15,761 nt of DNA from a virus. Below, piece by piece: positions 1,207 through 15,472 of the stretch (position 1 is its first letter; every line of letters begins with the position of its first letter). Under the pieces are notes generated by a model. That model made no database searches. It was not told where the DNA came from and was given only the letters and a program-made list of their open reading frames with translations. The position numbers were made by a program, and so were the translations under genes. The stretch lies in the UHGV virus genome UHGV-0242293. One strand, given 5' to 3'.

Positions 1207-1272
1207 AACGGGAAGGATGCCGCCGGGTCATACCGGCGGCAATGTGACGATGAGGTGTCGGGGATGGCACAA

Positions 1273-2185: not shown

Positions 2186-2438
2186 CGTTTTCGTCCTGAC
2201 AGTGTTTAATCATTTTTACCTGGCTGGCACAGCGTGCCAGCGCGTTCTCAAGCTGCCGGATATCGGCACTTAAATCGCCGTTCGTCTGCGGGTCACTGCC
2301 CGGCATCGGGCAAAGACTCACTTTCGGGCAGGCGTTGGGGACAATCACTGGCGTCAGTGCAGGCCGGACGCTGGTGCAACCGGCGCACAGCATCAGGCAG
2401 GTCAGCACCGTACCAGCGGCGAAAATCTTCGTTTTCAT
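2148..2438 (-). CDS. lysC: LysC, Rz1-like outer-membrane lipoprotein spanin, embedded out of frame in lysB and overlapping R
   Basis: Internal ATG at 2438 preceded by a GAGG Shine-Dalgarno. Product begins MKTKIFAAGTVLTCLMLCAGC, with a signal peptide and lipobox (LCAG-C) and a Pro-rich mature part. 96 codons, as in P2 LysC. Confidence 0.75.
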   Translation of the reverse strand: MKTKIFAAGTVLTCLMLCAGCTSVRPALTPVIVPNACPKVSLCPMPGSDPQTNGDLSADIRQLENALARCASQVKMIKHCQDENDAQTRQPAQGAD

Positions 2439-2718
2439 TGAGTAACCTCGTGATGGTTTTCTCGCGCTGTGCTTCACGCTTCGCGGCGTTCTCCAGTTCC
2501 TGACGCAGTGCCACCTGCGCCAGCTCGTTTTTGTCTGCTCTGGTGAGGGCAACATGAAGCTGATTTTTCAGCATGGTGATGGTCACCTGCTGTTCACTGG
2601 CGACGTTGTTCACCCTGTCCAGCGAGGCGCGCAGGCTGGCGTTTTCATGCTTCGCCAGAAACAGACCCGCCACCGCCAGCGATAACAACACAACCATCAC
2701 AATCATCAGCCTTGACAT
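2293..2718 (-). CDS. lysB: LysB, Rz-like inner-membrane spanin
   Basis: 141-aa ORF with an N-terminal TM helix (IVMVVLLSLAVAGLFL) followed by a coiled-coil-like region; position and length match P2 LysB. Confidence 0.85.
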   Translation of the reverse strand: MSRLMIVMVVLLSLAVAGLFLAKHENASLRASLDRVNNVASEQQVTITMLKNQLHVALTRADKNELAQVALRQELENAAKREAQREKTITRLLNENEDFRRWYGADLPDAVRRLHQRPACTDASDCPQRLPESESLPDAGQ

Positions 2719-3131
2719 GGTTCCCGCCCCTCAAAACGCTGACGGCAGGCCGTACGTATCAGCCGGAAGAACACCGATACCACGAGGTAAATCAGCGCAG
2801 TAAAAATCCACCCGGCAGCGACCAGCGAGATAAATGTCGCCACCATCACCACCAGAGCCGCTGCCCGCCTGCGCCACGGCACCGGCTGCAAAAACAGCGA
2901 CGTGACAATCTTCACGGCCAGCGATTCCGGCGGCAGCTCCCGCCCGTAGCGTTCCAGCACATACTCCGTGGCATACACGCCGACACCACCGGCAACCACA
3001 CAGATAACCGTCGCCAGAATCGCCCAGGCAGCGACAAAACTGACGACCACGCTCTGCGGGTAAATCAGGGACAGTGCCAGCATCAGCGCCAGCGACACGT
3101 GCAGCATCAGTGAAAGGGATAATTTCTTCAT
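2706..3131 (-). CDS. lysA: LysA, membrane protein of the lysis cassette (lysis timing)
   Basis: 141-aa ORF with several hydrophobic helices; syntenic with and the same length as P2 LysA. Confidence 0.85.
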   Translation of the reverse strand: MKKLSLSLMLHVSLALMLALSLIYPQSVVVSFVAAWAILATVICVVAGGVGVYATEYVLERYGRELPPESLAVKIVTSLFLQPVPWRRRAAALVVMVATFISLVAAGWIFTALIYLVVSVFFRLIRTACRQRFEGREPCQG

Positions 3132-3145
3132 GGTGTTTACTCCGT

Positions 3146-3643
3146 TTAAGCCGGTACGCCGCCAGCGGTACGCCAGACGGTGACCAGTTTTTCCAGTGAA
3201 TGCTCACGCTGACCGTAACCGGCACCCGGCAGGGACGCCCAGATATTGCGACAGCGTGAAATGGCGCGCTCAATGCGTCCCGCCCGGATGTCATCCAGTG
3301 CTCCGCGTTCGCGGATCAACTGAATGGCGAGTCTGTCCTGTGACAACGGACTAAAATCCGGCAGGGCAAGCTGTTTGCGGTAATGCGGCCAGAACAGGTA
3401 AAGCTGCTGATAGCGACCGGAGGCCGTGGATTTTTCACCGCGACGGTTAAACACCTTCGCCGGTCGGCCATGTGCGAACGGGTGGTCACTGTAGTCGGTG
3501 AAGATTTCCGGCTTTCCGTCCAGTCCGGTGACTATCACGTCATAGCCCCGGTTTTTCGTCAGCGGATGATTCGCCGTCCCTTCGGACACGGCCAGCATGT
3601 CGAGAAAGGCCGCGATATTCTGATGCGTGTTAATTACCGGCAT
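3146..3643 (-). CDS. K: Endolysin gpK (lysozyme-like)
   Basis: 165-aa ORF (MPVINTHQNIAAFLDMLAVSEGT...) matching P2 gpK; directly downstream of the holin. Confidence 0.9.
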   Translation of the reverse strand: MPVINTHQNIAAFLDMLAVSEGTANHPLTKNRGYDVIVTGLDGKPEIFTDYSDHPFAHGRPAKVFNRRGEKSTASGRYQQLYLFWPHYRKQLALPDFSPLSQDRLAIQLIRERGALDDIRAGRIERAISRCRNIWASLPGAGYGQREHSLEKLVTVWRTAGGVPA

Positions 3644-3924
3644 TACTGTTTCCCCCTGCCCTTAAAACGGCGCTGAATGGCAATCTCAATCACCTGATAA
3701 CCGGCGATACCCAGCATGGAGCCGATACCGCACACCGCAGGCAGTGACAGGTCAGGAAACTGCACCAGAACAACACCGGCAACCATCGAGACAAAACCAC
3801 CGAGCAACATGCGCCCGATAAACAGACGCGGGGTGATGGGTTCACCACCGGCAAGCACCTTGCCGACAACAATCAGCACCCCAATCATGAAAAGCGACAG
3901 GACGCTTTTTTCTTCTGCTGTCAT
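3643..3924 (-). CDS. Y: Holin gpY
   Basis: 93-aa ORF with hydrophobic helices and a charged C-terminus (RRFKGRGKQ); matches P2 gpY in length and position. Confidence 0.88.
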   Translation of the reverse strand: MTAEEKSVLSLFMIGVLIVVGKVLAGGEPITPRLFIGRMLLGGFVSMVAGVVLVQFPDLSLPAVCGIGSMLGIAGYQVIEIAIQRRFKGRGKQ

Positions 3925-3927
3925 GCG

Positions 3928-4131
3928 TTACTCCCACAGATTGACAGTTTCAGCCACGGGCGCGGTCTGAACGTCGGGCAGTTCGACGGCGGTGCCGTGC
4001 GGCAGCACCGCACCCAGTTCAGCCAGTCCCGGATTTGCGGCGAGCACGGCCTTGAGCACGCCCTCAGTGCGCCCGTAATACCGGACACAGATGGCGTCGA
4101 GCGTGTCGCCCTGTAGCGCAAAGGTCTTCAT
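3928..4131 (-). CDS. X: Tail protein gpX
   Basis: Internal start at 4131 (MKTFALQGDTLDAICVRYYGRTEGVLKAVLAANPGL...) gives 67 aa as in P2 gpX; ATGA overlap with the L stop. The 90-aa ORF in the track is an upstream extension. Confidence 0.85.
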   Translation of the reverse strand: MKTFALQGDTLDAICVRYYGRTEGVLKAVLAANPGLAELGAVLPHGTAVELPDVQTAPVAETVNLWE

Positions 4132-4640
4132 CAGATTTGACTCACAATGCAGCGCGGCTTGTCCTGGATTCGCGCCACTGCCCAGCGCATATCCCGCCAC
4201 AGCTCATCAATGGTGCTGTCAATGCTGTCGGCCTTCTTGTCGCCTTTGGCACTGGCATCCACGCCGCGATAACGCTCATAAAGCGATGCGGTCGCCATCG
4301 CACACACGGCGCGCTCGTAGTAAAAAACTTTGATGCTTTCACCGTCGATGTCGTCCGCCGGGACTTCCGCCAGACGCGTAAAACCGGCGGCAATTTTCTG
4401 TTCGCGGTACTCGTACAGCTCCGCATTCGTCTCCGCCATGCCTGACTTGATGGCCTCACGCAGACGGGCGGGGGCGACGGTCTGCTCAAGGCGCATACGT
4501 TCCCGGACGCGCTTCGGGTCGATATCGGGAAAAAAGAACGTGTTTTTAATCACCGGCTCGTCGCCTGCCGGTTGCGGGATGACCACCGTACCCTCACCGG
4601 ACACGGGAGCCTCCTTTCGCGGAATAATCAGCGTCATCAT
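4131..4640 (-). CDS. L: Head completion / stabilisation protein gpL
   Basis: Start chosen at MMTLIIPRKEAPVSGEG (4640), giving 169 aa as in P2 gpL; the track ORF extends 20 codons further upstream. Confidence 0.85.
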   Translation of the reverse strand: MMTLIIPRKEAPVSGEGTVVIPQPAGDEPVIKNTFFFPDIDPKRVRERMRLEQTVAPARLREAIKSGMAETNAELYEYREQKIAAGFTRLAEVPADDIDGESIKVFYYERAVCAMATASLYERYRGVDASAKGDKKADSIDSTIDELWRDMRWAVARIQDKPRCIVSQI

Positions 4641-4739
4641 GACTACCTCTGAAAAGTCGGGCGGTGGACGCCGGTGCAGTGTCAGGTGATTCACCCTCAC
4701 TGACCGGCGTGCCGCCCTGGCGCGGGGCGCATTCGGTTG

Positions 4740-5483
4740 TTAACTGGCTTTCTTTTTCGGGCGTCCACGTTTTGCCGGTGTCACGCTCCGGGTCTTACGC
4801 GGGGCGCGGGTGGCCGCTTTGGGCTGCGGCTCCGGCTTCGGTTTCAGCTCCCGCTCCAGTCGTTCAATCTCTTTTTTGACACCTGCCTGACAGTCGAGCT
4901 GTGTCGCACGTTGCAGGTGAGCCAGCGCACCGGCGGCATCACCACCATCACGCAGAAGCAGACCGGTGATTTTGTGCAGCTTTGCGCGCACTTCATCAGG
5001 CATGTCAGCCGTGGCGGTCAGTTCAAGGGTCTCCGTCAGCAGGCGGGTATCCACAGACTCACCGGCAGCGTGGGCGCGCATGGCCGCTAGCGCCACCTCC
5101 TCGGTGAACATGTATGGCGGGGTGCGGCGGTGTTTACCCGGCATGGTCAGACCGTACTTCAGGGCATAACGGGCAATCTCCAGCGCACCGCTAATATCGC
5201 CGGTATCCAGACGCCACAGCATGACCGTCATCAGAATGTCATCCTGTGCACCTTTGCCCTGCTCCAGCACGCCGTTCACCCACGGCAACCAGAACGGCAG
5301 CAGTTCGCGTTTTTTCGCGGCCTTCAGCTCTTTTGAATAAATCGCTTTCAGTGTGCGCTGGTCTGCGGCGAGCTTAACCAGCATCTGCTCATAGACAGTT
5401 GCATGTCGCAGCGGGGCGGCTTCCCGCTGCGCGGTCATCGCTGCCGAGACCCGCATCATGTGGCGCTGTGCGGGACTCGTCAT
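4740..5483 (-). CDS. M: Terminase small (endonuclease) subunit gpM
   Basis: 247-aa ORF (MTSPAQRHMMRVSAAMTAQREAAPL...) with a basic C-terminal tail; matches P2 gpM. Confidence 0.9.
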   Translation of the reverse strand: MTSPAQRHMMRVSAAMTAQREAAPLRHATVYEQMLVKLAADQRTLKAIYSKELKAAKKRELLPFWLPWVNGVLEQGKGAQDDILMTVMLWRLDTGDISGALEIARYALKYGLTMPGKHRRTPPYMFTEEVALAAMRAHAAGESVDTRLLTETLELTATADMPDEVRAKLHKITGLLLRDGGDAAGALAHLQRATQLDCQAGVKKEIERLERELKPKPEPQPKAATRAPRKTRSVTPAKRGRPKKKAS

Positions 5484-5486
5484 CGG

Positions 5487-6560
5487 TTACGCTCCCGGCT
5501 CTGCGGTCGCTTTAGCCAGTGTGGAGAAATCACCGACCTTAATTTTTTCCACCAGACAACCGGCGGCGTAGTCCTCCACCACGTAATCAATGTTCATTGA
5601 CTCGTAGTTCTCCACGCGGTCGAGTTTCGGGTTTTCCTCAATCACGCGGCGATGGCTGTCATCCATGTAGTAGATGGACAGGTTTTCCAGCTTCGTGATG
5701 AGCATCGCATCCGCCGGGAAGTACGGGACGCGTACCGCTGGCAGGTTGCCGATGCGTTTCTGGCTGATGATGACGTCAGCGGCCAGCATTTCGCTGTTGT
5801 CCTGCTCCTTGTTGACGATGGGAAAATACTTGTCCGCCAGTAGCTGACGTCCCACAATCACCACAAGGTCAGGGTCTTCCTGATACCACGGCTCAATCAG
5901 GTTGTTGGTCGCATCCATCACCAGTGCATCAAGGCTGGCATAATCACCGCCCTTACCCACGCGGATGACCTCAGAGGTGGTGTGCCCTTCCTCGTCAGTG
6001 ACCTTGCTCATCACGCGCGCCGGGGCTTCATTGCGGTATTTCTGCAGCCAGCCGACCGCCACATCCTGCAGCATCGGATTGCTGCTGCGGTCAGAGGTTT
6101 CGGCACGCCTCACGCCGTTAAAACCGGCCATGATTAAATCAAGGGACTGGCGTTTGATAATGGCGTTACGGACACGGAGCTGGAAATCCTGATAACGCGC
6201 CCACAGATCCAGCGTTTTGTAGCGGATATAAAAATCGAAGTTAATCTGGTCGCATTCGTACTTGTTTGACGCCAGCTTCGAGAAGTCCTTCGGCTGACGC
6301 TCGGTGCCACCGGCGGTGTCGGTGGTGCTGGCGATGGAGCCGGTGACACCAATACCAATTTTTTCCCCTTTCATTTCGCTGACCGGCACAATGTTGATGC
6401 GGGTCAGAAAGTCAGAGGACTCCTGCATGGTGTTCATCAGGGTCTGGGTGACCGACGGTTCAACGGTGAATTTTTTCGACACATCACCGGCGTCGATGCC
6501 GTTCAGTTCGGCAACACGGGACAGGTAGGCATTAAATTTAAAGCGGGTTTCCTGGCGCAT
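5487..6560 (-). CDS. N: Major capsid protein gpN
   Basis: 357-aa ORF (MRQETRFKFNAYLSRVAELNGIDAGD...) matching P2 gpN in length and sequence. Confidence 0.92.
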   Translation of the reverse strand: MRQETRFKFNAYLSRVAELNGIDAGDVSKKFTVEPSVTQTLMNTMQESSDFLTRINIVPVSEMKGEKIGIGVTGSIASTTDTAGGTERQPKDFSKLASNKYECDQINFDFYIRYKTLDLWARYQDFQLRVRNAIIKRQSLDLIMAGFNGVRRAETSDRSSNPMLQDVAVGWLQKYRNEAPARVMSKVTDEEGHTTSEVIRVGKGGDYASLDALVMDATNNLIEPWYQEDPDLVVIVGRQLLADKYFPIVNKEQDNSEMLAADVIISQKRIGNLPAVRVPYFPADAMLITKLENLSIYYMDDSHRRVIEENPKLDRVENYESMNIDYVVEDYAAGCLVEKIKVGDFSTLAKATAEPGA

Positions 6561-6618
6561 AGTTTTTCCTGAAATTAAGGGTTAATCGTGAAGGTTTTCC
6601 CGGACTGACTGACGCCGG

Positions 6619-7473
6619 TCAGCAGTTCGTCATCAGGGCGTCACCGCCACCACCGGTGGCCTTGCTGCGGCGCTGCTGGGTCAGACTTTCGGTGTGGTCG
6701 AGACTGTTTTTCAGGCGGGTGAATGCCTGGCTGGTTTCATCCGCCCTGTCAGTCACCTCCTGCTTAAGTGCAGAAAAGGCGGTTTCCATCTCAGCGAGGC
6801 GCTGCTCAGTGGCGCTCAGTTTTTCCTGCACATGTTCAGCAACAGCGGTCACCGCTTCATGCACGTCATTCAGACGGGCGTCATCGCTGGCCTGTTTGCG
6901 GCCAAAAATGGATTTCACCTTTTCGGTCAGGGCGGTGAACACGGTTTCAGGCAGGTCTTCAAATTCCAGCTCAACGGGCGTTGCCACTGAAATCAGGTTT
7001 TCAGGGCTTAATTTGAAGCGGTTCAGAGGGTTGTGTTTTGCCGTGCGGCAGAATTCCAGGTATTCCGTGCCGAGGCTTGCCGGGTCATCGGTGACGGCCA
7101 GCCCCACCAGATAACATTTGCCGGTGTTGGCAAAGTTCGGCTGAATTTCCATTGAGGTATAGACCTTCTGCGCGGCCTTGTTCATCGCGATAAGGTCATC
7201 GGTCGGGGTGATTTTCGCAAACAGCGCCCATTTGCCTTTCAGCGCCGAATCATCGTCAATCTTTTCGGCCTTCAGTTCGGCCACATCGCCATAACGTTTA
7301 AAAATACCGTCAGGCAGGATGCCGCGCAGATGTTCCAGGTTAATGCGGCAACCATAGACTCGCGGGTCAAAGGTTTCGGCCATTTCCTGAATATCCTGCG
7401 CACTGATGACACGCCCGTCACAGGTGTCACCCTCAACGCCGATACGAAAGAATTTTGAGACTTTTTTTGCCAT
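6619..7473 (-). CDS. O: Capsid scaffolding protein gpO
   Basis: Start chosen at MAKKVSKFFRIGVEGDTCDG (ATG at 7473), giving 284 aa as in P2 gpO; the track ORF 6619..7539 is an upstream extension. Confidence 0.9.
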   Translation of the reverse strand: MAKKVSKFFRIGVEGDTCDGRVISAQDIQEMAETFDPRVYGCRINLEHLRGILPDGIFKRYGDVAELKAEKIDDDSALKGKWALFAKITPTDDLIAMNKAAQKVYTSMEIQPNFANTGKCYLVGLAVTDDPASLGTEYLEFCRTAKHNPLNRFKLSPENLISVATPVELEFEDLPETVFTALTEKVKSIFGRKQASDDARLNDVHEAVTAVAEHVQEKLSATEQRLAEMETAFSALKQEVTDRADETSQAFTRLKNSLDHTESLTQQRRSKATGGGGDALMTNC

Positions 7474-7646
7474 TGTCAGGAGTCCTGAATAGTGATTAGA
7501 GGAGTCACATGTCGGCATCAGTTTCCCGACGATACGCATCCTCCGCCATCAGTCCCGGATGGCTTATCACTGACACAACAGCACCTTAGCGAATCGCGGG
7601 GCGCGACTCAGTAGCCTTGCCGTGTATTCATCACGGCGAGGTATTC
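7474..7646. promoter_or_regulatory. Divergent O/P intergenic region, expected site of the divergent late promoters
   Basis: 173-bp gap between the divergently transcribed O and P genes. In P2 the late promoters for the O and P operons lie here. I did not find an exact TGT-N12-ACA activator dyad by eye, so promoter elements are not pinpointed. Confidence 0.4.
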
Positions 7647-9419
7647 ATGACCATCACCACAGACACCACTCTTTTACACGACCCGCGTCGTCAGGCGGCG
7701 CTGCTGTACTGGCAGGGGTTTTCCGTGCCGCAGATTGCCGCCATGTTGCAGATGAAACGCCCGACGGTGCAGAGCTGGAAACAGCGCGACGGCTGGGACA
7801 GCGTTGCCCCCATCAGCCGTGTCGAAATGAGTCTGGAAGCGCGGCTGACCCAGCTCATCATCAAACCGCAGAAAACCGGCGGTGACTTCAAGGAAATTGA
7901 CCTGCTGGGACGTCAGATTGAACGACTGGCACGGGTCAACCGCTACAGTCAGACCGGCAACGAGGCAGACCTTAATCCGAACGTCGCTAACCGCAACAAA
8001 GGCGGGCGTCGCAAACCGAAAAAGAATTTTTTCAGTGACGAGGCCATCGAAAAGCTGGAGCAGATTTTCTTTGAGCAGTCTTTCGAATATCAGTTGCACT
8101 GGTATCGCGCCGGGCTTGAGCACCGCATCCGCGATATCCTGAAATCCCGCCAGATTGGCGCGACGTTTTATTTTTCCCGCGAGGCGCTGCTGCGCGCCCT
8201 GAAAACCGGTCATAACCAGATTTTTCTGTCGGCCAGTAAAACGCAGGCGTATGTGTTCCGCGAATACATCATCGCCTTTGCCCGGCTGGTTGACGTTGAC
8301 CTGACCGGTGACCCGATTGTCCTGGGCAATAACGGCGCAAAACTGATTTTTCTCGGCACCAACTCCAACACCGCACAGAGCCATAACGGCGACCTGTACG
8401 TCGACGAGATTTTCTGGATCCCGAATTTTCAGGTACTGCGTAAGGTGGCATCAGGTATGGCCTCACAGAGTCACCTGCGCTCGACCTATTTCTCCACCCC
8501 GTCCACGCTGGCGCACGACGCCTACCCGTTCTGGTCGGGTGAACTGTTCAACCGGGGACGCGCCAGCGCCGCCGAACGCGTGGAAATCGACGTCAGTCAT
8601 AACGCCCTTGCCGGAGGTCTTCTCTGTGCGGACGGCCAGTGGCGGCAGATTGTCACCATTGAGGACGCCCTGAAAGGCGGCTGCACGCTGTTCGACATTG
8701 AGCAGCTCAAACGTGAAAACAGCGCCGACGATTTTAAAAACCTGTTCATGTGTGAATTTGTTGACGACAAGGCGTCGGTGTTCCCGTTCGAGGAGCTGCA
8801 ACGTTGCATGGTCGACACGCTGGAAGAATGGGAAGACTATGCGCCGTTTGCCGCAAATCCGTTCGGCTCCCGCCCGGTATGGATTGGTTACGACCCGTCA
8901 CACCGTGGCGACAGCGCCGGATGCGTGGTACTGGCACCGCCGGTGGTGGCCGGTGGCAAATTCAGAATACTTGAGCGTCACCAGTGGAAAGGCATGGACT
9001 TTGCCACCCAGGCGGAATCCATCCGCAAACTCACCGAAAAATATAACGTTGAATACATCGGGATTGATGCCACCGGCCTCGGTGTCGGCGTGTTCCAGCT
9101 CGTGCGCTCGTTCTATCCCGCCGCGCGCGATATCCGCTACACGCCGGAAATGAAAACCGCAATGGTGCTCAAGGCAAAAGACGTTATCCGCCGTGGCTGT
9201 CTGGAATATGACGTCAGCGCCACCGACATCACCAGCTCGTTTATGGCTATCCGCAAGACCATGACCAGCAGCGGACGCAGCGCCACCTATGAGGCCAGCC
9301 GCAGCGAGGAAGCCAGCCACGCCGATCTCGCCTGGGCGACTATGCACGCCCTGTTAAATGAGCCACTCACCGCCGGTATCAGCACCCCGCTGACATCCAC
9401 CATTCTGGAGTTTTACTGA
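7647..9419 (+). CDS. P: Terminase large (ATPase) subunit gpP
   Basis: Start at MTITTDTTLLHDPRRQAALLYWQGF (ATG 7647, SD ggcgagg upstream) gives 590 aa, matching P2 gpP; the track ORF starts 10 codons earlier. Confidence 0.92.
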   Translation: MTITTDTTLLHDPRRQAALLYWQGFSVPQIAAMLQMKRPTVQSWKQRDGWDSVAPISRVEMSLEARLTQLIIKPQKTGGDFKEIDLLGRQIERLARVNRYSQTGNEADLNPNVANRNKGGRRKPKKNFFSDEAIEKLEQIFFEQSFEYQLHWYRAGLEHRIRDILKSRQIGATFYFSREALLRALKTGHNQIFLSASKTQAYVFREYIIAFARLVDVDLTGDPIVLGNNGAKLIFLGTNSNTAQSHNGDLYVDEIFWIPNFQVLRKVASGMASQSHLRSTYFSTPSTLAHDAYPFWSGELFNRGRASAAERVEIDVSHNALAGGLLCADGQWRQIVTIEDALKGGCTLFDIEQLKRENSADDFKNLFMCEFVDDKASVFPFEELQRCMVDTLEEWEDYAPFAANPFGSRPVWIGYDPSHRGDSAGCVVLAPPVVAGGKFRILERHQWKGMDFATQAESIRKLTEKYNVEYIGIDATGLGVGVFQLVRSFYPAARDIRYTPEMKTAMVLKAKDVIRRGCLEYDVSATDITSSFMAIRKTMTSSGRSATYEASRSEEASHADLAWATMHALLNEPLTAGISTPLTSTILEFY

Positions 9420-10438
9420 TGAGTAAGAAAAAAGGGAAAACACCGCAGCCAGCGGTGAAAACAATGACTGCCAGCGCCCCGAAAATGGAGGCATTCACCT
9501 TTGGTGAGCCGGTGCCGGTACTCGACCGCCGTGATATTCTGGATTACGTCGAGTGCATCAGTAACGGCAGATGGTATGAGCCACCGGTCAGCTTTACCGG
9601 TCTGGCAAAAAGCCTGCGTGCTGCCGTGCATCACAGCTCACCGATTTACGTTAAACGCAATATTCTGGCTTCAACGTTTATCCCGCACCCGTGGCTGTCC
9701 CAGCAGGATTTCAGCCGCTTTGTGCTGGATTTTCTGGTGTTCGGTAATGCGTTTCTGGAAAAGCGTTACAGCACCACCGGTAAGGTCATCAGACTGGAAA
9801 CCTCACCGGCAAAATATACCCGCCGTGGCGTGGAGGAGGATGTTTACTGGTGGGTGCCGTCCTTCAACGAGCCGACAGCCTTCGCGCCCGGCTCCGTGTT
9901 TCACCTGCTGGAGCCGGATATCAATCAGGAGCTGTACGGCCTGCCGGAATATCTCAGCGCCCTTAACTCTGCCTGGCTGAATGAGTCGGCCACGCTGTTC
10001 CGCCGCAAGTATTACGAAAACGGCGCTCATGCCGGATACATCATGTATGTCACCGATGCCGTGCAGGATCGCAACGATATCGAAATGCTTCGCGAAAACA
10101 TGGTTAAGTCGAAAGGCCGCAACAACTTTAAAAACCTGTTTCTCTATGCCCCACAGGGGAAAGCCGACGGCATTAAAATTATCCCCCTCAGTGAAGTGGC
10201 GACGAAGGACGATTTTTTTAATATCAAAAAAGTCAGCGCCGCAGATCTCCTGGACGCACACCGCATCCCCTTTCAGTTGATGGGCGGTAAGCCGGAGAAT
10301 GTCGGGTCACTAGGAGATATTGAAAAAGTGGCAAAGGTCTTTGTCCGCAATGAACTCATTCCATTACAGGAGAGAATAAAGTCAATAAATGAATGGTTAG
10401 ATATGGAAGTAATAAAATTCCTTGATTATAACTTATAA
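9419..10438 (+). CDS. Q: Portal protein gpQ
   Basis: 339-aa ORF (MSKKKGKTPQPAVKTMTASAPKMEAFTFGEP...) matching P2 gpQ; start overlaps the P stop (TGATG). The last ~15-30 codons are AT-rich, suggesting the 3' end was remodelled by the adjacent insertion. Confidence 0.88.
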   Translation: MSKKKGKTPQPAVKTMTASAPKMEAFTFGEPVPVLDRRDILDYVECISNGRWYEPPVSFTGLAKSLRAAVHHSSPIYVKRNILASTFIPHPWLSQQDFSRFVLDFLVFGNAFLEKRYSTTGKVIRLETSPAKYTRRGVEEDVYWWVPSFNEPTAFAPGSVFHLLEPDINQELYGLPEYLSALNSAWLNESATLFRRKYYENGAHAGYIMYVTDAVQDRNDIEMLRENMVKSKGRNNFKNLFLYAPQGKADGIKIIPLSEVATKDDFFNIKKVSAADLLDAHRIPFQLMGGKPENVGSLGDIEKVAKVFVRNELIPLQERIKSINEWLDMEVIKFLDYNL

Positions 10439-10449
10439 GTAAATATATA

Positions 10450-10478
10450 AAGTTGGCGGAATGCAATCCCGCCAACTT
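10450..10478. terminator. Perfect 10-bp hairpin between convergent Q and the retron effector gene; candidate bidirectional terminator
   Basis: aagttggcgg-(9 nt loop)-ccgccaactt read directly from the sequence, lying between the Q stop (10438) and the minus-strand effector stop (10481), with A/T-rich flanks on both sides. Confidence 0.5.
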
Positions 10479-10480
10479 AA

Positions 10481-11188
10481 CTATATATACTTCCTTTTTA
10501 CTCTACTTAATTCTATCACTGATGAGGAGTGACAAAATGACAAATTAATAGTATCGATATAATCCAAAATTTGACTCTCAACCTCAATAAAAATATTTTT
10601 GGGCCCATTACTAATCGATATACCGATTTCATCCAAAACAGCCATCATTTTTCTCTGATGAGTTTTATATTTATAGTCTTTATTTTCCTCTGTAATATGT
10701 GCATTGGCTTCCTCAATAACACATTTGATTCTAGATATTATTTCTAGATAATCTCTCGAAACAGATATATCACCGCCTTGCGCTTCAGGGAACATAACCC
10801 TATACCATCTAAAAAAATTAACTTTCTCTGGATAGATGCTACTTCTTTTAGTTAACTCAGCACTTGCAAATTCTCTAAACATCGTCAGATGACTAGTGTA
10901 ATTACTATTATTATTATTTTTAACTCCAGCGTTATATGTCATCAAAGCAATCATAACACCAAAAACGGTAACAAAAGTTGTTATAAGCCATCCAAACGCC
11001 TGAAAATACATTACTATACCAGATGTTTTTTCCGCAAAAAATTTTAAGCACTGGCTATCGAAGCATATATCACGCTCATATAGCTTTTCATTCTGAATAG
11101 TTTCAAAAAGAGAAATTAGCGAAAAAATCAAAAAAAGAGCTGACGACACACCGACAATATATTTGAGAAGTCTAATATTTGCATTCAT
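10481..11188 (-). CDS. Retron-associated effector: two N-terminal transmembrane helices plus a ~150-aa soluble C-terminal domain of unknown function
   Basis: 235-aa ORF. Hydrophobic stretches LLKYIVGVSSALFLIFSLISLF and IVMYFQAFGWLITTFVTVFGVMIALMTY. Its ATG overlaps the RT stop as ATGA (11185-11188), indicating translational coupling. AT-rich, unlike the phage backbone. Confidence 0.75.
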   Translation of the reverse strand: MNANIRLLKYIVGVSSALFLIFSLISLFETIQNEKLYERDICFDSQCLKFFAEKTSGIVMYFQAFGWLITTFVTVFGVMIALMTYNAGVKNNNNSNYTSHLTMFREFASAELTKRSSIYPEKVNFFRWYRVMFPEAQGGDISVSRDYLEIISRIKCVIEEANAHITEENKDYKYKTHQRKMMAVLDEIGISISNGPKNIFIEVESQILDYIDTINLSFCHSSSVIELSRVKRKYI

Positions 11189-12375
11189 AATGGTTTTAAA
11201 GATGCCAATCTAGATTTAAAACACTCCAGTTTTTCTTTAAATGATTCAGAGCGAGTAAGAATAATCATCTTATATTTCGTCAAATCATATTTTCTTTTAT
11301 ACCAATGTTTATTTTGATTACCTTTCGAATACGACAACTCTAAACTTTTTATAGCTGCATCAATCACAGCAACATCTCTTTTAGATGGCATCGGTTTTAT
11401 TGCCTGCAACTGTTTCTTGAATGATTCATATTTTTCATGCGCAACACGGCCAAGCTTATTCACTCTCCCCATACATCTATTGAATTCTTTTCTGTATGCA
11501 ACACTTGTTTTTGTGTTATTTTTTGCCGCCAGTAATTTCAAATTATGTATAGATGCCCTGATTCTTTTGACTTCATCGGATGGTAGTCGAGGTGAGTCAT
11601 AGTCAACTCTTAAACCATGTACTTTTATAGGTTCAGATGAACAGTGAAATATTTTAGTTTTGCGCTTATTTATCGGCAAGTCATGCTCAGAAAGCATCCT
11701 CTCTATATGGCTTTGCATTTGAGAAAAATCATAATTACTTATTTTAGATGACACGGTAATATCATCTACCAAACGCGTATAAACAAGTCCTTTCCTCTGC
11801 GCACGTCTTACCACATCCCCTTCAACAGCGAATAAACACAAAGTTGCTATATAGCTTGATGTTAAGGCCCCCTGTACGACAAAATCATCCTTAGTACATA
11901 TATCCACCAAGTATTCAAGAGCCTCATCCTTAATATGCAATATCTCCTCAAACACGCTCCTAACCAGATCTCTATGGATATTATCGAAAAAATTACTTAT
12001 ATCCACCTTGAGAACTGTTTTTGCTCCACAATGAGCCTTTGCACATGAAACATAGTCACGTTTGACATTAGAATTTAAAACATCATTTTTACTGGGAACT
12101 GAACCAAACAAAAATGAAGGAAAAACAACCAATTCCTTAAAGATACGTTTATTAATTCTACTCTGTAATAATCTCATTTTAGGATGCAGGGAGTAGACAA
12201 TCCGTTTGCTTCCGTCAATTTTGGGAATTTCTTTTAGAGTATATTTCTCATCTAATGGTAATTCTGCAATAGCTTTAAGCTCTTCAACAGAAATCGATAA
12301 AGCCTTTGACAACTTTTCAAGTGTTGTGATAGGAGCATTGGATTTGCTGTATGGTTTAAATTTATCCATAAACAT
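11185..12375 (-). CDS. Retron-type reverse transcriptase
   Basis: RT motifs in the translation: LKVDISNFFDNI (motif A), QGALTSSYIATLCLF (motif B), YTRLVDDITV (YxDD active site), NKRKTKIF, then KVHGLRV where retron RTs have the VTG signature. Block-by-block similarity to retron Ec86 RT from memory. Start is uncertain: 12375 or 12369 is favoured by alignment, but 12411 and 12459 are in frame. Confidence 0.85.
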   Translation of the reverse strand: MFMDKFKPYSKSNAPITTLEKLSKALSISVEELKAIAELPLDEKYTLKEIPKIDGSKRIVYSLHPKMRLLQSRINKRIFKELVVFPSFLFGSVPSKNDVLNSNVKRDYVSCAKAHCGAKTVLKVDISNFFDNIHRDLVRSVFEEILHIKDEALEYLVDICTKDDFVVQGALTSSYIATLCLFAVEGDVVRRAQRKGLVYTRLVDDITVSSKISNYDFSQMQSHIERMLSEHDLPINKRKTKIFHCSSEPIKVHGLRVDYDSPRLPSDEVKRIRASIHNLKLLAAKNNTKTSVAYRKEFNRCMGRVNKLGRVAHEKYESFKKQLQAIKPMPSKRDVAVIDAAIKSLELSYSKGNQNKHWYKRKYDLTKYKMIILTRSESFKEKLECFKSRLASLKPL

Positions 12376-12443
12376 ACCATTCAAATTCAAAGTTACGTAC
12401 GGTCTTCCCATACTCAAGGGTGGAACAGCAGAGATGCTTACAT

Positions 12444-12593
12444 CAACAATTGTCAGCAACAGCCTCTGCTATCTTTCGACCGTACGTAATGTCGTCGGCT
12501 ACGGCACCATCGTAGTTGACGACGGTGGGGCCTCGCTGATAGGTCCATAGTGGACGCTTTTTTGTAAAAGCAAAAACTGACAATTTAATGTTG
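12444..12593 (-). ncRNA. Candidate retron msr-msd non-coding RNA
   Basis: Immediately upstream of the RT on the same strand. An interrupted inverted repeat (minus strand caacaTTAAattgtcag at 12577-12593, and ctgacaattgttg at 12444-12456) brackets ~120 nt. Inside are stem-loops gcttttacaaaaaagc, gtccactatggac, and a longer imperfect hairpin gtcgtcaactacg/cgtagccgacgac. Boundaries and the branching G are not determined. Confidence 0.4.
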
Positions 12594-12646
12594 TTGACTG
12601 CCGCATACCAAGCGAATCGCTGGTGCGCTAAGAATAATGCAACAAA

Positions 12647-12676
12647 AAAATAAGAATTTCAACCGGGTAACTGCAA
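12647..12676 (-). promoter_or_regulatory. Candidate sigma70 promoter for the retron ncRNA-RT-effector operon
   Basis: On the minus strand: TTGCAG (12676-12671), an 18-nt spacer, then TATTTT (12652-12647), about 50 nt upstream of the proposed a1 repeat. Confidence 0.35.
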
Positions 12677-12700
12677 GCCAGCGACATCGTTTAGCGCGCA

Positions 12701-12719
12701 GTGCTTTCCCCGCCTCGCC
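12701..12719. other. P2-type cos site (19-nt cohesive end)
   Basis: The minus strand reads GGCGAGGCGGGGAAAGCAC, which is the P2 cohesive-end sequence as I recall it, followed by TGCGCGCT. It lies between the terminase/portal genes and the tin/old-equivalent locus, as expected. Confidence 0.8.
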
Positions 12720-12742
12720 CGCCCGCTTCATGGGGCGGTTTT
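12719..12742 (+). terminator. GC-rich hairpin plus T-tract next to cos; possible intrinsic terminator
   Basis: ccgccc-(8 nt)-gggcgg followed by tttt on the plus strand. It abuts the cos core, so it may instead be part of the packaging site. Confidence 0.3.
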
Positions 12743-12925
12743 AATGCAGTAGCATGACCACTCAACTAGCGCGCCAGTCCTGATGTCGCCAGGCAGTTAT
12801 TGTTCTCTGACTTGCGTGCGCTTCGATGCAGAGTAATGCACTTCCTGAATTGCTCGCATTCGCATCGTTATCATGATAGAAAACAGGTAGTTATTTGTGC
12901 GCAACTTAAGAAGAAATCACTAATT

Positions 12926-14470
12926 ATGAAAAAGATTTATGAATTAACTACTGGTAGAGCGCTTAAGTATTTTCTGCAGCATGATTCATACACTACTCTG
13001 GAGCTACCCAGTTATGTCGATTTTTCTTCCTTGCTTGAAGAAATCAACTCCGCGATAGATGAAGGTAAAATCAACTTCCAACCTGACTCCAAGTCATTGA
13101 TGGGGAAGAATATAAATTACGAGGTTTTAGTCAGCAAAGATGGCTTATATAGCTGGCGACGAATAACACTAATTAATCCTCTGTACTACGTGTATTTTTG
13201 TAAACTTATTACATCCCCTTCCAACTGGAAGGCTATAAAGAATAAATTTAGAGAGTTTGAGTCTAATGATCTTTTTTTATGCTCAAGTACCCCAGTGAGC
13301 AAAAAGAACACCTCAAACGTAGCTGCATCTGTTTTAAACTGGTGGGAAGATTTTGAACAAAAAAGTCTTTCATTGGCTCTTGAGTATGAGTTCATGTTCA
13401 GCACAGATATTTCAAACTTCTACCCTTCTATTTACACTCATAGCTTTGAATGGGTATTCATCTCAAAAGAAGAGGCCAAAAAGAAAGAAAATAACAATAA
13501 CCCAGGACGATTGATTGACACTCATATCCAGATGATGATGAGTAATCAGACAAACGGAATACCATTGGGTAGTACGTTGATGGATACATTTGCCGAATTA
13601 ATTTTAGGCGAAATTGATTTACAGCTAAGAAAAAAAACTGAAGAGCAAAAAATAACGGATTACAAAGTAGTTCGCTACAGAGATGATTATCGAATATTTT
13701 CAAGCAGTAAAGATGATTTGGACAAAATCTCAAAGTGTTTGGTTGAGGTCTTAGGTGAGTTTGGGCTTGATTTAAACTCAAGAAAAACAGAACTACATGA
13801 CGACATCATTCTTCACTCTCTTAAATCAGCAAAAAAAGAATATATTATAGAAAGGTCGTTCAACTCCCTACAGAAAATGTTGTATGCAATATATTTATTT
13901 TCTTTAAAACATCAAAACTCCAAAATTACAGTTAGATATTTAAATGATTTCTTGCGAAAATTATTTAGGAAGAAAAAGATCACAAATAGTGGGCATCAAC
14001 TAGATGCAATGCTTGGAATTATTTCAAGCATCATGGCTAAAAACCCAACCACCTACCCAGTGGGAATGGCTATTTTCGCAAAACTCTTGACCTTCCTTTA
14101 TGACGACGATGAACTCAAATTTGGCAAGTTACAACAACTTCATTGTAAACTAGGTAAACAACCAAATACTGAAATGTTAGATATTTGGTTTCAACGAGTT
14201 CAAGGGAAGATACACACACAATGGGAAGGCGATTACAAAACAGCCCTATGTCAACGCATAAATGATGAACTCAAGGGAAAAAAAACATTTACCATTGATG
14301 GCCTGTGGGATGTAGAGTGGATTCCGGGCTCAGCCAAAAGTAAAAACAAACAGAAAATACTATCAATTTTGAAAAAAACAAAAATTGTGGATTTAGATGC
14401 ATTCGAAGAAATGGATAATGATATTACACCAGAAGAAGTGAACTTATTCGACAAGGAACACAGCGCTTAA
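12926..14470 (+). CDS. Abi-like reverse transcriptase (proposed Abi-P2 / UG-Abi class) with a C-terminal alpha-helical domain
   Basis: 514-aa product from the ATG at 12926 (the track ORF begins in GC-rich cos-proximal DNA at 12800). RT motifs FSTDISNFYPSIYTH, GIPLGSTLMDTFAELIL, VVRYRDDYRIF (YxDD), GLDLNSRKTEL; the C-terminal ~200 aa lacks RT motifs. No VTG motif, and no obvious structured ncRNA or partner gene. It sits where P2 carries tin/old, where Abi-P2 RTs have been reported. Confidence 0.8.
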   Translation: MKKIYELTTGRALKYFLQHDSYTTLELPSYVDFSSLLEEINSAIDEGKINFQPDSKSLMGKNINYEVLVSKDGLYSWRRITLINPLYYVYFCKLITSPSNWKAIKNKFREFESNDLFLCSSTPVSKKNTSNVAASVLNWWEDFEQKSLSLALEYEFMFSTDISNFYPSIYTHSFEWVFISKEEAKKKENNNNPGRLIDTHIQMMMSNQTNGIPLGSTLMDTFAELILGEIDLQLRKKTEEQKITDYKVVRYRDDYRIFSSSKDDLDKISKCLVEVLGEFGLDLNSRKTELHDDIILHSLKSAKKEYIIERSFNSLQKMLYAIYLFSLKHQNSKITVRYLNDFLRKLFRKKKITNSGHQLDAMLGIISSIMAKNPTTYPVGMAIFAKLLTFLYDDDELKFGKLQQLHCKLGKQPNTEMLDIWFQRVQGKIHTQWEGDYKTALCQRINDELKGKKTFTIDGLWDVEWIPGSAKSKNKQKILSILKKTKIVDLDAFEEMDNDITPEEVNLFDKEHSA

Positions 14471-14569
14471 CGAAACAATGTTATTAACTCAACATGACTT
14501 CGTTAAGCATTAAAGCGAACAGTCATATGAAATTTCGACATCCCTAACGCCTCGCAAGCTCGTTGTTCA

Positions 14570-14614
14570 CCCCCGCCAGCACTGAAAGCGAGTTTCAGCG
14601 TCGACGGGGTTTTC
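14570..14614 (+). terminator. Candidate intrinsic terminator downstream of the Abi-like RT
   Basis: Imperfect GC-based hairpin (ccccg...ctgaaa-gcgag-tttcag...cgggg) followed by ttttc, about 100 nt after the RT stop. Confidence 0.4.
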
Positions 14615-14635
14615 TATGGTCAACGTGGTGACAGA

Positions 14636-14854
14636 TTATGGGCACGCGTGAAGGTAGAAATATGGACGGTTGGGATTATTGATTTCTCCCATACGGCTGC
14701 AGTTATCACTGACGATCTCAGTCCCTCCGACCAACTCGTAGAGGGTCAGATTCTCTTTGACCATAATTTGTAAACAATAGCCATCAGCCGCAGACTCTTG
14801 CACGAGTACAATGGCGGAACCGGACGCATAGCTAGTAATGTATGCATTAGTCAT
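14636..14854 (-). CDS. Hypothetical small protein (~72 aa)
   Basis: ORF 14636..14896; the internal ATG at 14854 has a GGAAG Shine-Dalgarno 9 nt upstream. Balanced amino-acid composition and ~50% GC. No family recognised. Confidence 0.35.
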   Translation of the reverse strand: MTNAYITSYASGSAIVLVQESAADGYCLQIMVKENLTLYELVGGTEIVSDNCSRMGEINNPNRPYFYLHACP

Positions 14855-14957
14855 AATGACATGCTTCCAAAGCAAGATCGCCACGCAGTTCCGCATGATC
14901 CATCAGTTGCTGATACCAACCATCAAATGGAAGCAAAATCAACCATTTCAATCATTT

Positions 14958-15119
14958 TTATATGTTTGTTGAGAATCCCGGCCACTCATCAGCGACCGGA
15001 TACGTGAATTTTTCCCCGTCATAATTTACGGTCGCGCCACGCGCCAGCGCCTCAAGCTCCCATCGCTGTGGCCTGATACCGTTCTGAGCAAGGTCAACGC
15101 GGATACGGGTAATTTGCAT
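14958..15119 (-). CDS. Hypothetical small protein (53 aa), not in the ORF track (below 60 aa)
   Basis: Hand translation of the minus strand: MQITRIRVDLAQNGIRPQRWELEALARGATVNYDGEKFTYPVADEWPGFSTNI. Lies 61 nt upstream of the previous ORF on the same strand. No family recognised. Confidence 0.3.
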   Translation of the reverse strand: MQITRIRVDLAQNGIRPQRWELEALARGATVNYDGEKFTYPVADEWPGFSTNI

Positions 15120-15188
15120 TCGTTCCGACCGGGTCAGTCTGGCCGATGGCGCTATTTCATGCGGTTTTAACGGGCTTCCGTTTCTTTG

Positions 15189-15208
15189 CTGACATCGTGT
15201 TATGTCAG
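15189..15208. promoter_or_regulatory. Perfect 7-bp inverted repeat with a 6-bp spacer; candidate operator in a divergent intergenic region
   Basis: CTGACAT-cgtgtt-ATGTCAG read directly, about 70 nt upstream of the minus-strand 53-aa ORF and about 60 nt upstream of the plus-strand ORF at 15269. Confidence 0.3.
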
Positions 15209-15268
15209 TTTACTGGATACAGGGCAAGTGAATGCCCCTTTCCATGAATTAGATTAAAGGCTTGCAAA

Positions 15269-15472
15269 ATGAACAATAACAGTAAGAAAACTTTGAGTAA
15301 GAAAAGAACCAAGAAAGCCAAAAAGAAGTCGCTTACCCCTGAACAAAAAGCATTGCAAGCAGAACAAGCAGCAAAAAAAGCGCAAATTATAGAGAATAGG
15401 CGCTCTATTACAGCTCATGCTATTAATCTTTTTCAGCAATATACAGCACTCCGTAAAAAAGGATTGTCGTAA
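15269..15472 (+). CDS. Hypothetical small, very basic, Lys-rich protein (67 aa)
   Basis: ORF with an AAAGG Shine-Dalgarno 8 nt upstream of the ATG. Product MNNNSKKTLSKKRTKKAKKKSLTPEQKALQAEQAAKK... AT-rich context. Confidence 0.4.
   Translation: MNNNSKKTLSKKRTKKAKKKSLTPEQKALQAEQAAKKAQIIENRRSITAHAINLFQQYTALRKKGLS

What the first reader, a model, noticed from the sequence alone, without database searches (positions are those of the whole stretch)
10440..12700. Retron-like module (ncRNA candidate, RT, 2TM effector) inserted between portal gene Q and cos
A ~2.3-kb AT-rich block interrupts GC-rich P2 backbone between the Q stop and the cos core. It encodes, on one strand, a structured upstream non-coding region, a retron-type RT (YxDD active site, collinear with Ec86 RT) and a translationally coupled (ATGA) two-TM protein. 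This matches the architecture of retron anti-phage systems with membrane effectors. Because it sits inside the packaged genome end, it would ride with the phage if the prophage were ever mobilised.
Basis: partly seen in the sequence, partly recalled or inferred. Interest (0 to 1): 0.8.

Follow-up and report, generated by a model that had tools for sequence, protein, structure and literature searches.

The report
Known retron Ec48 in P2 prophage

Summary
An AT-rich block of about 2.25 kb (10440-12692, GC 0.30-0.36 against about 0.55-0.60) lies between the stop of portal gene Q and the P2 cos core (12701-12719).

On the minus strand it carries:
- a promoter-like site
- a structured non-coding RNA
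- a retron reverse transcriptase (RT)
- an ATGA-overlapping two-transmembrane (2TM) protein
- a terminator

It is Retron-Eco6 (Ec48), a type IV retron.
- The RT matches PADLOC RT_IV over its full length (586 bits).
- The effector passes the NCBIfam equivalog retron_Ec48_2TM (226.7 bits, cut-off 65).
- The 399 nt that the library holds of Millman et al.'s Ec48 test construct match the window exactly.
- The published Eco6 ncRNA maps to 12648-12463.
- The same trio (AbiP2 RT, this RT, this effector) is listed in Rousset et al. 2022 as a P2-hotspot arrangement.

One detail was wrong: the catalytic motif is LVDD, not YVDD.

Published work on this sequence shows msDNA synthesis and abortive-infection defence triggered by phage RecBCD inhibitors.

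One side result came from 38 homologues. The ncRNA has two covarying long-range helices that cross each other, and published ncRNA boundaries cut through them. Which helix primes reverse transcription stays unresolved.

Verdict: already known, low interest.

The parts
12634..12662 (-). Promoter-like site, TTGAAA-17 nt-CATTAT. It implies a transcription start near 12628.
   Evidence: Consensus scan, 9 of 12 matches. By eye, the -35 block is kept in the 7 closest homologues aligned there and a TAnnnT-like -10 in most, while the spacer varies. The start site is inferred, not shown.
12393..12628 (-). Retron Ec48 non-coding RNA region (msr-msd plus a conserved 3' domain), running from the inferred start to the end of helix arm A2.
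   Evidence: The printed Eco6 ncRNA in the census supplement maps to 12648-12463 with 184 identical letters and 3 single-base indels in machine-read text. The 399 nt the library holds of Millman's pAA10 Ec48 insert equal 12848-12450 exactly. Across 38 homologues 81% of cells are paired, against 66% in shuffles and 32-45% when partners are slid. No Rfam family matches.
12577..12606 (-). Helix B, 5' strand in three segments (12606-12603, 12598-12593, 12585-12577). This is a candidate a1. G12577 at its inner end sits in a UCAG/UUAG context and is a candidate branching G.
   Evidence: It pairs with 12437-12434, 12447-12442 and 12456-12448. In those three segments every pair has changes on both sides in some homologues, and 92%, 96% and 80% of cells are paired. 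The assignment as a1 is inferred.
12434..12456 (-). Helix B, 3' strand (candidate a2). It lies in the loop of helix C.
   Evidence: It lies beyond the 3' end (12463) of the ncRNA printed in the census supplement.
12543..12571 (-). Two small hairpins, H1 (12571-12556) and H2 (12555-12543), in the position of msr stem-loops.
   Evidence: 89% and 85% of cells are paired, and compensatory changes occur in most pairs.
12482..12529 (+). Most likely msDNA-Ec48 (48 nt, DNA sense equals the plus strand). The template is the minus-strand RNA. The core is the hairpin 12491-12503 / 12511-12523.
   Evidence: The RT-DNA printed for Retron-Eco6 in the census supplement starts GTACGTAATGTCG, which is the plus strand from 12482. 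A 48-nt DNA from there folds at -11.1 kcal/mol, against -4.9 and -3.8 for the two alternatives. The inverted repeat was found. The 3' end is inferred from the published length of 48 nt. The supplement's own RT-DNA is 159 nt, so only its 5' end is used here.
12478..12489 (-). Helix A, 5' arm (UUACGUACGGUC). The close-homologue-invariant G12477 follows it.
   Evidence: A 12-nt perfect inverted repeat with 12393-12404. All 12 pairs show compensatory changes and 89% of cells are paired. RNAalifold predicts it independently. G12477 is invariant in the 8 closest sequences.
12393..12404 (-). Helix A, 3' arm. It ends 17-23 nt before the RT start codon.
12407..12470 (-). Helix C (12470-12464 / 12433-12427) and the conserved hairpin CCCUUGAGUAUGGG (12420-12407).
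   Evidence: 80% and 96.5% of cells are paired. RNAalifold predicts both. The two invariant columns (12418, 12417) and three of the nearly invariant columns of the 38-sequence alignment lie in the hairpin.
11185..12369 (-). Retron Ec48 reverse transcriptase (394 aa from ATG 12369). Other annotated starts are 12375 (396 aa) and 12411 (408 aa, which overlaps the ncRNA). The catalytic LVDD is at 11772-11761.
   Evidence: PADLOC RT_IV scores 586.1 bits over residues 6-393 against profile positions 2-385 of 386, while the next best model, RT_V, scores 210.6. Pfam RVT_1 scores 108.7 bits. The D216/D217 numbering of Millman et al. fits the 12411 start. CAKAH replaces NAXXH and VHG replaces VTG, as reported for RT-Eco6.
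10481..11188 (-). Retron Ec48 2TM effector (235 aa). Transmembrane segments are at about aa 7-30 and 62-86. The ATG overlaps the RT stop (ATGA at 11188-11185).
   Evidence: PADLOC 2TM_IV scores 282.9 bits. NCBIfam NF038235 retron_Ec48_2TM (equivalog) scores 226.7 against a cut-off of 65. The exact sequence carries the name 'Retron Ec48 transmembrane protein ... TM48_ECOLX'. The same sequence is printed in Rousset 2022 Table S5 as 'Type IV retron'.
10450..10478 (-). Intrinsic-terminator-like hairpin followed by a T-rich tail, 3 nt after the effector stop.
   Evidence: 13-pair stem with 6 GC pairs.
12701..12719 (-). P2 cos cohesive-end core. It forms the boundary of the module and belongs to the phage, not to the retron.
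   Evidence: Exact match to GGCGAGGCGGGGAAAGCAC. The identification of that 19-mer as the P2 cohesive end is from my own knowledge. P2-family phages match only 12693-12760 here.
12926..14470 (+). Neighbouring cargo on the other side of cos: an AbiP2-class reverse transcriptase (514 aa). It is a separate defence gene in the same hotspot.
   Evidence: PADLOC AbiP2 scores 531.6 bits. It is 99.4% identical to the putative RT of P2-EC58 and 74.9% identical to the RT of P2-EC30.

Best explanation
The block is Retron-Eco6 (Ec48), a type IV retron anti-phage system. It is carried as cargo in the cos-proximal variable hotspot (between gpA and gpQ) of a P2-like prophage.

How it works:
1. A promoter just inside the block drives one transcript. 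This is inferred here.
2. The 5' part of that transcript is the structured msr-msd RNA. The rest encodes the RT and the translationally coupled 2TM protein.
3. The RT copies part of the RNA from a branching G into the 48-nt msDNA-Ec48. This is shown in the literature for this sequence.
4. RT, msDNA and effector are all needed for defence. RT D216A/D217A mutants and deletion of effector residues 3-85 (the two TM helices) abolish it (Millman et al.).
5. When phage proteins such as lambda Gam or T7 gp5.9 inhibit RecBCD, the system fires and the cell dies before phage release. The authors hypothesised that the 2TM effector causes the death, by analogy with CBASS membrane effectors. That membranes are in fact permeabilised is from my own memory of the published work, not from a passage read here.

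How RecBCD status reaches the effector is not known. I regard the msDNA as the most likely sensor.
For: - Family assignment: RT_IV at 586 bits over the full length and 2TM_IV at 283 bits. The NCBIfam equivalog retron_Ec48_2TM is passed at 226.7 against 65.
- Identity to the reference: the effector's exact sequence is named TM48_ECOLX. The 399 nt the library holds of the pAA10 'Ec48' insert equal window 12848-12450 exactly. The Eco6 ncRNA from the census maps to 12648-12463. The D216/D217 numbering fits. The CAxxH and VHG variants match what was reported for RT-Eco6.
- RefSeq annotation of identical DNA names the 'retron Ec48 family effector membrane protein'.
- Location: Rousset 2022 describes the gpA-gpQ cos-proximal hotspot and lists WP_001605760 + WP_050516365 + WP_000993280 as 'Type IV retron'.
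- Function, from the literature: Millman et al., Palka et al. on the msDNA, and Gam as a trigger of Eco6.
- Family coherence: RT and 2TM genes are adjacent in 37 of 40 homologous loci, and the ncRNA helices covary.
Against: - Nothing argues against the identification.
- Only the first 399 nt of the tested construct are held as text, so identity of the rest rests on protein names, family scores and 100% DNA identity to RefSeq-annotated copies.
- No expression or msDNA data exist for this particular strain.
- The host prophage here has a truncated gene A.
- The a1/a2 pair and the branching G could not be fixed from sequence.
Confidence: 0.96

Rival explanations
1. The RT belongs to a non-retron class (Abi/DRT, group II intron, DGR), and the upstream structure is unrelated to msDNA synthesis.
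For: The catalytic tetrad is LVDD rather than YADD, and the NAXXH and VTG hallmarks are altered. No Rfam family matches the upstream RNA. An Abi-type RT lies next door.
Against: The best profile by far is retron RT_IV at 586 bits. The only non-retron RT model among the 25 listed, the CRISPR-associated RT, scores 91.9 bits. The same motif variants are documented for the experimentally validated RT-Eco6. The sequence equals the Ec48 construct. The closest solved structures are retron RTs, with Ec86 at E = 2e-16.
Confidence: 0.01
2. It is Ec48 by sequence but functionally silent here, a passenger in a decaying, rearranged prophage.
For: P2 homology ends at 15193. Gene A is reduced to about 78 codons and fused head-to-head to another hotspot's sequence.
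Against: All retron parts are intact and 100% identical over 2401 nt to copies in 57 complete E. coli genomes and in phage pro147. The retron has its own promoter-like site and terminator. The same fragment is active when cloned on its own. Its activity therefore should not depend on prophage integrity.
Confidence: 0.08
3. This is a rival on mechanism only. Helix A (12489-12478 / 12404-12393), with G12477 as the branching G, is the priming duplex. The msDNA would then be a copy of 12405-12452, not of the 12491-12523 hairpin.
For: Helix A is the best-supported helix: perfect over 12 bp, with compensatory changes in all 12 pairs. A G follows it directly, it ends close to the RT start as a2 usually does, and 48 nt from A2 ends inside helix B.
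Against: The RT-DNA printed for Eco6 starts at 12482 and contains the 12491-12523 hairpin. A DNA from 12405-12452 has almost no structure (-3.8 kcal/mol). The census supplement lists 0.66% precise bacterial editing for its Eco6 editing vector, and the ncRNA it prints ends at 12463, outside this region; where the donor sat is not stated in the text I read.
Confidence: 0.12

Closest known systems
Retron-Eco6 (Ec48), type IV retron (Mao et al. 1997; Millman et al. 2020; Mestre et al. 2020)
   Same: It is the same element. The effector is identical in sequence. The 399 nt held as text of the tested construct are identical. The ncRNA maps base for base. The RT carries the same unusual motifs. The RT stop and effector start overlap as ATGA.
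   Different: Nothing of substance differs. Annotated RT starts vary (394, 396 or 408 aa).
P2-like phage cos-proximal defence hotspot, home of old/tin in P2 (Odegrip et al. 2006; Rousset et al. 2022)
   Same: The block lies between gpA and gpQ, directly beside cos. The very arrangement of AbiP2 RT plus type IV retron is listed in Rousset Table S5.
   Different: In this window the flanking gene A is truncated and rearranged.
Type VI retron Retron-Vpa2 and type V Retron-Sen1 (the same RT clade 3)
   Same: They are sister clades. Gam (RecBCD inhibition) triggers Eco6 and Sen1. The type VI RNA has extra arms beyond msr-msd and inverted repeats that tie distant parts together, and its msDNA gains 23 nt at the 5' end when RecBCD is inhibited. 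Here 24 nt separate helix arm B2 from the reported msDNA 5' end.
   Different: The effectors differ: an HTH protein plus a small toxic peptide encoded inside the RNA for type VI, and a cold-shock protein for type V. PADLOC RT_V scores 211 bits and RT_VI 182 bits, against 586 for RT_IV. Eco6 makes abundant msDNA without a trigger.
Retron-Eco1 (Ec86)
   Same: General retron logic: ncRNA, then RT, with an effector gene alongside. It has the closest solved RT structure (E = 2e-16).
   Different: It belongs to a different clade (type II-A), its effector is a nucleoside deoxyribosyltransferase-like protein, it has the YADD, NAXXH and VTG motifs, and its ncRNA is a simple nested fold.

Membership tests
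Retron (general) | RT of the retron clade with the retron-specific regions X and Y | tested here: met
   Twenty-four of the top 25 PADLOC hits are retron RT models, with RT_IV best at 586 bits. Region X is present as CAKAH and VTG as VHG, the variants reported for RT-Eco6.
Retron (general) | Structured msr-msd RNA directly upstream of the RT on the same strand, with terminal inverted repeats and a branching G | tested here: inconclusive
   A structured, covarying RNA is present and equals the published Eco6 ncRNA. Two candidate priming helices (A and B), each with a candidate G (G12477 and G12577), could not be told apart.
Retron (general) | Production of branched msDNA | not testable with these tools
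   Reported in the literature for this sequence: 48 nt (45 nt by sequencing) in Palka et al., and used as a gel reference.
Type IV retron / Retron-Eco6 (Ec48) | RT in the type IV branch of clade 3 | tested here: met
   RT_IV scores 586 bits over the full length, against 211 for RT_V and 182 for RT_VI.
Type IV retron / Retron-Eco6 (Ec48) | Effector with two N-terminal TM helices, encoded just downstream of or overlapping the RT gene | tested here: met
   2TM_IV scores 283 bits. NF038235 (equivalog) scores 226.7 against 65. The ATGA overlap and two hydrophobic segments are confirmed. The gene pair is adjacent in 37 of 40 loci.
Type IV retron / Retron-Eco6 (Ec48) | Sequence identity to the reference Ec48 element | tested here: met
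   The pAA10 insert matches exactly over all 399 nt the library holds. The ncRNA shares 184 of 185 letters with machine-read text. The effector is labelled TM48_ECOLX.
Type IV retron / Retron-Eco6 (Ec48) | Abortive-infection defence triggered by RecBCD inhibition | not testable with these tools
   Known from the literature only.
P2 cos-proximal hotspot cargo | Located between gpA and gpQ next to cos in a P2-like genome, with foreign base composition | tested here: met
   The same protein trio appears in Rousset Table S5.
AbiP2 (the neighbouring gene 12926-14470) | Single-gene Abi-type RT of P2-like phages | tested here: met
   The AbiP2 profile scores 531.6 bits. It is 99.4% identical to the P2-EC58 RT and 74.9% to the P2-EC30 RT.

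The most novel reading that the evidence does not exclude
The Ec48-type ncRNA may be a switch rather than a simple nested msr-msd fold.

In 38 homologues two long-range helices both covary, and they cross each other. Helix B is 19 bp in three segments (12606-12577 with 12456-12434). Helix A with helix C is 12489-12464 with 12433-12393. The 7-nt linker 12463-12457 looks too short for both to be fully formed together.

Published ncRNA boundaries (12648-12463) cut through this architecture. They also include about 20 nt that look like promoter sequence.

The reported msDNA 5' end (12482) lies 24 nt from helix arm B2. That mirrors the 23-nt 5' extension that the sister type VI retron's msDNA shows only when RecBCD is inhibited.

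The reading that is not excluded: reverse transcription starts next to B2, and the first 24 nt are removed, or not made, while RecBCD is active. Their persistence, or the loss of helix A/C once its 5' arm has been copied and degraded, would then be the signal that releases the effector.
Probability: 0.15. Interest if true: 0.55.

Novelty: already known. Interest (0 to 1): 0.1.

Why it matters
As a finding it adds little, because the system, its mechanism in outline and its genomic niche are all published. It does confirm that a reader without tools can recognise a retron from raw sequence. It also shows a P2-like element carrying two RT-based defence genes, one on each side of cos.

The only forward-looking value is the comparative RNA result. 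Type IV retron RNAs have conserved crossing helices and a conserved 3' domain beyond the ncRNA the census supplement prints. That could matter to people who engineer Eco6 for genome editing. It could also matter for the open question of how Ec48 senses RecBCD inhibition.

Tried and rejected
- Rfam at gathering thresholds gave no match in the whole window.
- The original description (Mao et al. 1997) could not be read by PMC id or PubMed id. The published branching G and msr length could therefore not be checked.
- Full-text searches for 15-16-mers of the ncRNA or of candidate msDNAs found no paper.
- The supplements of Palka 2022 and Simon 2019 hold no Eco6 sequence.
- I looked by hand for an a1 arm followed by G that would pair directly 3' of the reported template start (12481 or 12480). 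Nothing convincing turned up.
- The pairing implied by the census boundaries is 12648-12640 with 12471-12463, which is 9 bp, 5 of them G-U. It falls on the spacer and -10 of the conserved promoter and shows no covariation in close homologues. I rejected it as the native a1/a2.
- I considered a circularly permuted retron in which the branching G follows arm A2. It puts the first copied base one position off the reported 5' end, and no conserved G supports it, so I rejected it.
- G12499, in the nearly invariant UAGC motif, cannot be the branching G. The template would run into the branch point after 13 nt.
- MAFFT does not align the variable msd hairpin well (56-57% of cells paired), so that helix rests on the window and its close relatives only.
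- I ran no further search on the effector. No solved relative exists, and a model would not change the verdict.
Full report
**Observation.** The window is a P2-like prophage segment.
- The terminase gene P (7617-9419) and the portal gene Q (9419-10438) lie on the plus strand.
- After the Q stop, GC drops from about 0.55-0.60 to 0.30-0.36 until about 12500.
- The 19-nt P2 cohesive-end sequence lies at 12701-12719. P2-family phages match only 12693-12760 around it.
- On the minus strand, in order, lie:
  - a promoter-like site (12662-12634)
  - about 235 nt of structured non-coding sequence
  - an RT ORF (12369-11185)
  - a 235-aa ORF (11188-10481) whose ATG overlaps the RT stop as ATGA
  - a terminator-like hairpin (10478-10450)
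- The small protein has two hydrophobic segments, at about aa 7-30 and 62-86.
- One detail was wrong. The catalytic tetrad is LVDD, not YVDD, and L is the residue in 19 of the 20 aligned family members.

**Identification from profiles.**
- The RT matches the PADLOC type IV retron RT profile end to end (586 bits, against 211 for type V and 182 for type VI). The small protein matches 2TM_IV (283 bits).
- The small protein passes NCBI's equivalog model retron_Ec48_2TM (226.7 bits, cut-off 65).
- Its exact sequence carries the Swiss-Prot-derived name TM48_ECOLX, 'Retron Ec48 transmembrane protein'.

**Identification from published sequence.**
- The supplement of Millman et al. 2020 gives the insert of plasmid pAA10, the Ec48 system they tested. 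The 399 nt held as text equal window 12848-12450 exactly. The tested fragment itself therefore included the cos site.
- The ncRNA printed for Retron-Eco6 in the retron census maps to 12648-12463. It has 184 identical letters and three single-base indels in machine-read text.
- Millman's RT mutant numbering (D216A/D217A) fits the LVDD aspartates when the ORF is read from ATG 12411.
- The unusual CAxxH (for NAXXH) and VHG (for VTG) motifs are the ones Simon et al. report for RT-Eco6.

**Distribution and niche.**
- The 2.4-kb module is 100% identical in 57 of 5,426 complete E. coli genomes. There RefSeq names the effector 'retron Ec48 family effector membrane protein'. It is also 100% identical in phage pro147.
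- Rousset et al. 2022 describe the region between gpA and gpQ, next to cos, as a defence hotspot of P2-like phages.
- The gene on the other side of cos (12926-14470) is an AbiP2-class RT. It is 99.4% identical to that of P2-EC58 and 74.9% identical to the functional RT of P2-EC30.

**How it works.** The steps below are taken from the literature on this same sequence.
- The RT reverse-transcribes part of the ncRNA into msDNA-Ec48, reported as 48 nt and measured as 45 nt by sequencing.
- RT active-site mutants and deletion of effector residues 3-85 (the two TM helices) abolish defence.
- Lambda and T7 escape by losing Gam or gp5.9. Expressing those RecBCD inhibitors kills cells that carry Ec48, and the plasmid cannot be established in recB cells.
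- Gam alone triggers Eco6.
- The accepted model is a guard of RecBCD that ends in cell death, which the authors attribute to the 2TM effector by analogy with CBASS.
- How RecBCD status is sensed is unknown.
- No solved structure exists for either protein. Ec86 RT is the nearest solved relative.

**Comparative work on the RNA: data.**
- I collected 33 species-level loci with RTs 42-57% identical and six closer ones at 59-78% identity.
- The 2TM gene follows the RT in 37 of 40 loci.
- An alignment of the 265 nt upstream of the RT in 38 sequences supports the following helices with compensatory changes:

| Helix | Coordinates | Support |
|---|---|---|
| A | 12489-12478 / 12404-12393 | all 12 pairs covary, 89% of cells paired |
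| C | 12470-12464 / 12433-12427 | 80% of cells paired |
| Conserved hairpin CCCUUGAGUAUGGG | 12420-12407 | 96.5% of cells paired |
| H1 and H2 | 12571-12543 | 89% and 85% of cells paired |
| B, segment 1 | 12606-12603 / 12437-12434 | 92% of cells paired |
| B, segment 2 | 12598-12593 / 12447-12442 | 96% of cells paired |
| B, segment 3 | 12585-12577 / 12456-12448 | 80% of cells paired |

- For the whole structure, 81% of cells pair. Shuffles give 66% and slid partners give 32-45%.
- RNAalifold independently returns A, C and the hairpin.

**Comparative work on the RNA: reading.**
- Helix B crosses A and C. The RNA is therefore either a pseudoknot or has two alternative folds.
- A 7-nt linker between C and B looks too short for both to be complete at once. 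This is my inference.
- Close homologues keep the TTGAAA -35 block and mostly a -10-like hexamer, while the spacer varies. This places the start near 12628. The first 20 nt or so of the census ncRNA are then probably promoter in the native context.

**What stays open.**
- Helix B looks like a canonical a1-G...a2. It encloses two msr-type hairpins and the msd hairpin (12523-12491).
- The RT-DNA printed for Eco6 starts at 12482, which is 24 nt from B2. A 48-nt DNA from 12482 forms a good hairpin (-11.1 kcal/mol). The alternatives do not.
- Helix A also looks like an a1-G...a2, but it predicts an msDNA that conflicts with the printed RT-DNA.
- The sister type VI retron shows a 23-nt 5' extension of its msDNA only when RecBCD is inhibited. 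The parallel with the 24-nt gap here is suggestive but untested.

**Context of this copy.**
- P2 homology runs from 410 to 15193.
- At 15193 gene A, reduced to about 78 C-terminal codons on the minus strand, is joined head-to-head to other sequence. In strain PEC41 that sequence lies just past a gene A stop and leads into an HNH-endonuclease cargo gene, which is itself truncated here.
- This is either an inversion between two P2-like prophages or an assembly artefact. Either way, this copy lacks a complete replication gene.

**Verdict.** The element is already known, down to the construct used to define its function, and its position in the P2 hotspot is catalogued. Interest is low. The only loose end worth a specialist's time is the crossing-helix RNA architecture and the site where priming occurs.

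Noticed in passing
12926-14470 (+): A second reverse transcriptase of the AbiP2 class lies on the other side of cos. It is 99.4% identical to the putative RT of P2-EC58 and 74.9% identical to the functional RT of P2-EC30. The element thus carries two RT-based defence genes flanking cos, a pairing listed in Rousset 2022 Table S5.
   Followed up: yes
14958-15330: P2 homology stops at 15193. Gene A survives only as about 78 C-terminal codons on the minus strand. It is fused head-to-head to sequence that in strain PEC41 lies just downstream of a gene A stop. This is an inversion between two P2-like prophages or an assembly chimera.
   Followed up: partly
15269-15472 (+): The start of an 'HNH endonuclease signature motif' cargo gene from another P2 hotspot variant. 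It is cut to 67 aa here, against 443 aa in PEC41, and about 400 nt are missing relative to that record.
   Followed up: partly
1-409: The left end does not match the otherwise 99.7%-identical prophages. Positions 141-409 match a different allele of baseplate gene V, which is ordinary P2 mosaicism. Positions 1-140 had no near match.
   Followed up: no
12393-12606 (-): The ncRNA has two covarying long-range helices that cross (B against A/C) and a highly conserved hairpin, CCCUUGAGUAUGGG. Arm B2, helix C's 3' arm, the hairpin and arm A2 all lie beyond the 3' end (12463) of the ncRNA printed in the census supplement.
   Followed up: partly
12629-12648 (-): The first 20 nt of the published (census) Eco6 ncRNA coincide with the spacer and -10 hexamer of the conserved promoter-like site. 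The a1 arm predicted there is probably not part of the native transcript.
   Followed up: partly
12369-12411 (-): Public annotations use three RT starts: 12369 (394 aa), 12375 (396 aa) and 12411 (408 aa). The longest runs through helix arm A2 of the ncRNA. Most homologues are 394-396 aa long, which favours the shorter forms.
   Followed up: partly
12498-12501 (-): A nearly invariant AG within GUAGC sits in the 3' arm of the msd hairpin across 38 homologues. Conservation of primary sequence inside an msd is unusual, and I could not explain it.
   Followed up: no
L037:1-4894, L039, L041: Type IV retron homologues ride on other mobile elements. In Providencia the retron lies next to a P4-like primase and an Ogr/Delta gene. 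Two metagenomic contigs have an integrase next to the retron.
   Followed up: no
10450-10478: The hairpin after the effector stop lies 12 nt after the stop of Q on the opposite strand. It may serve as a terminator for both converging transcripts.
   Followed up: no
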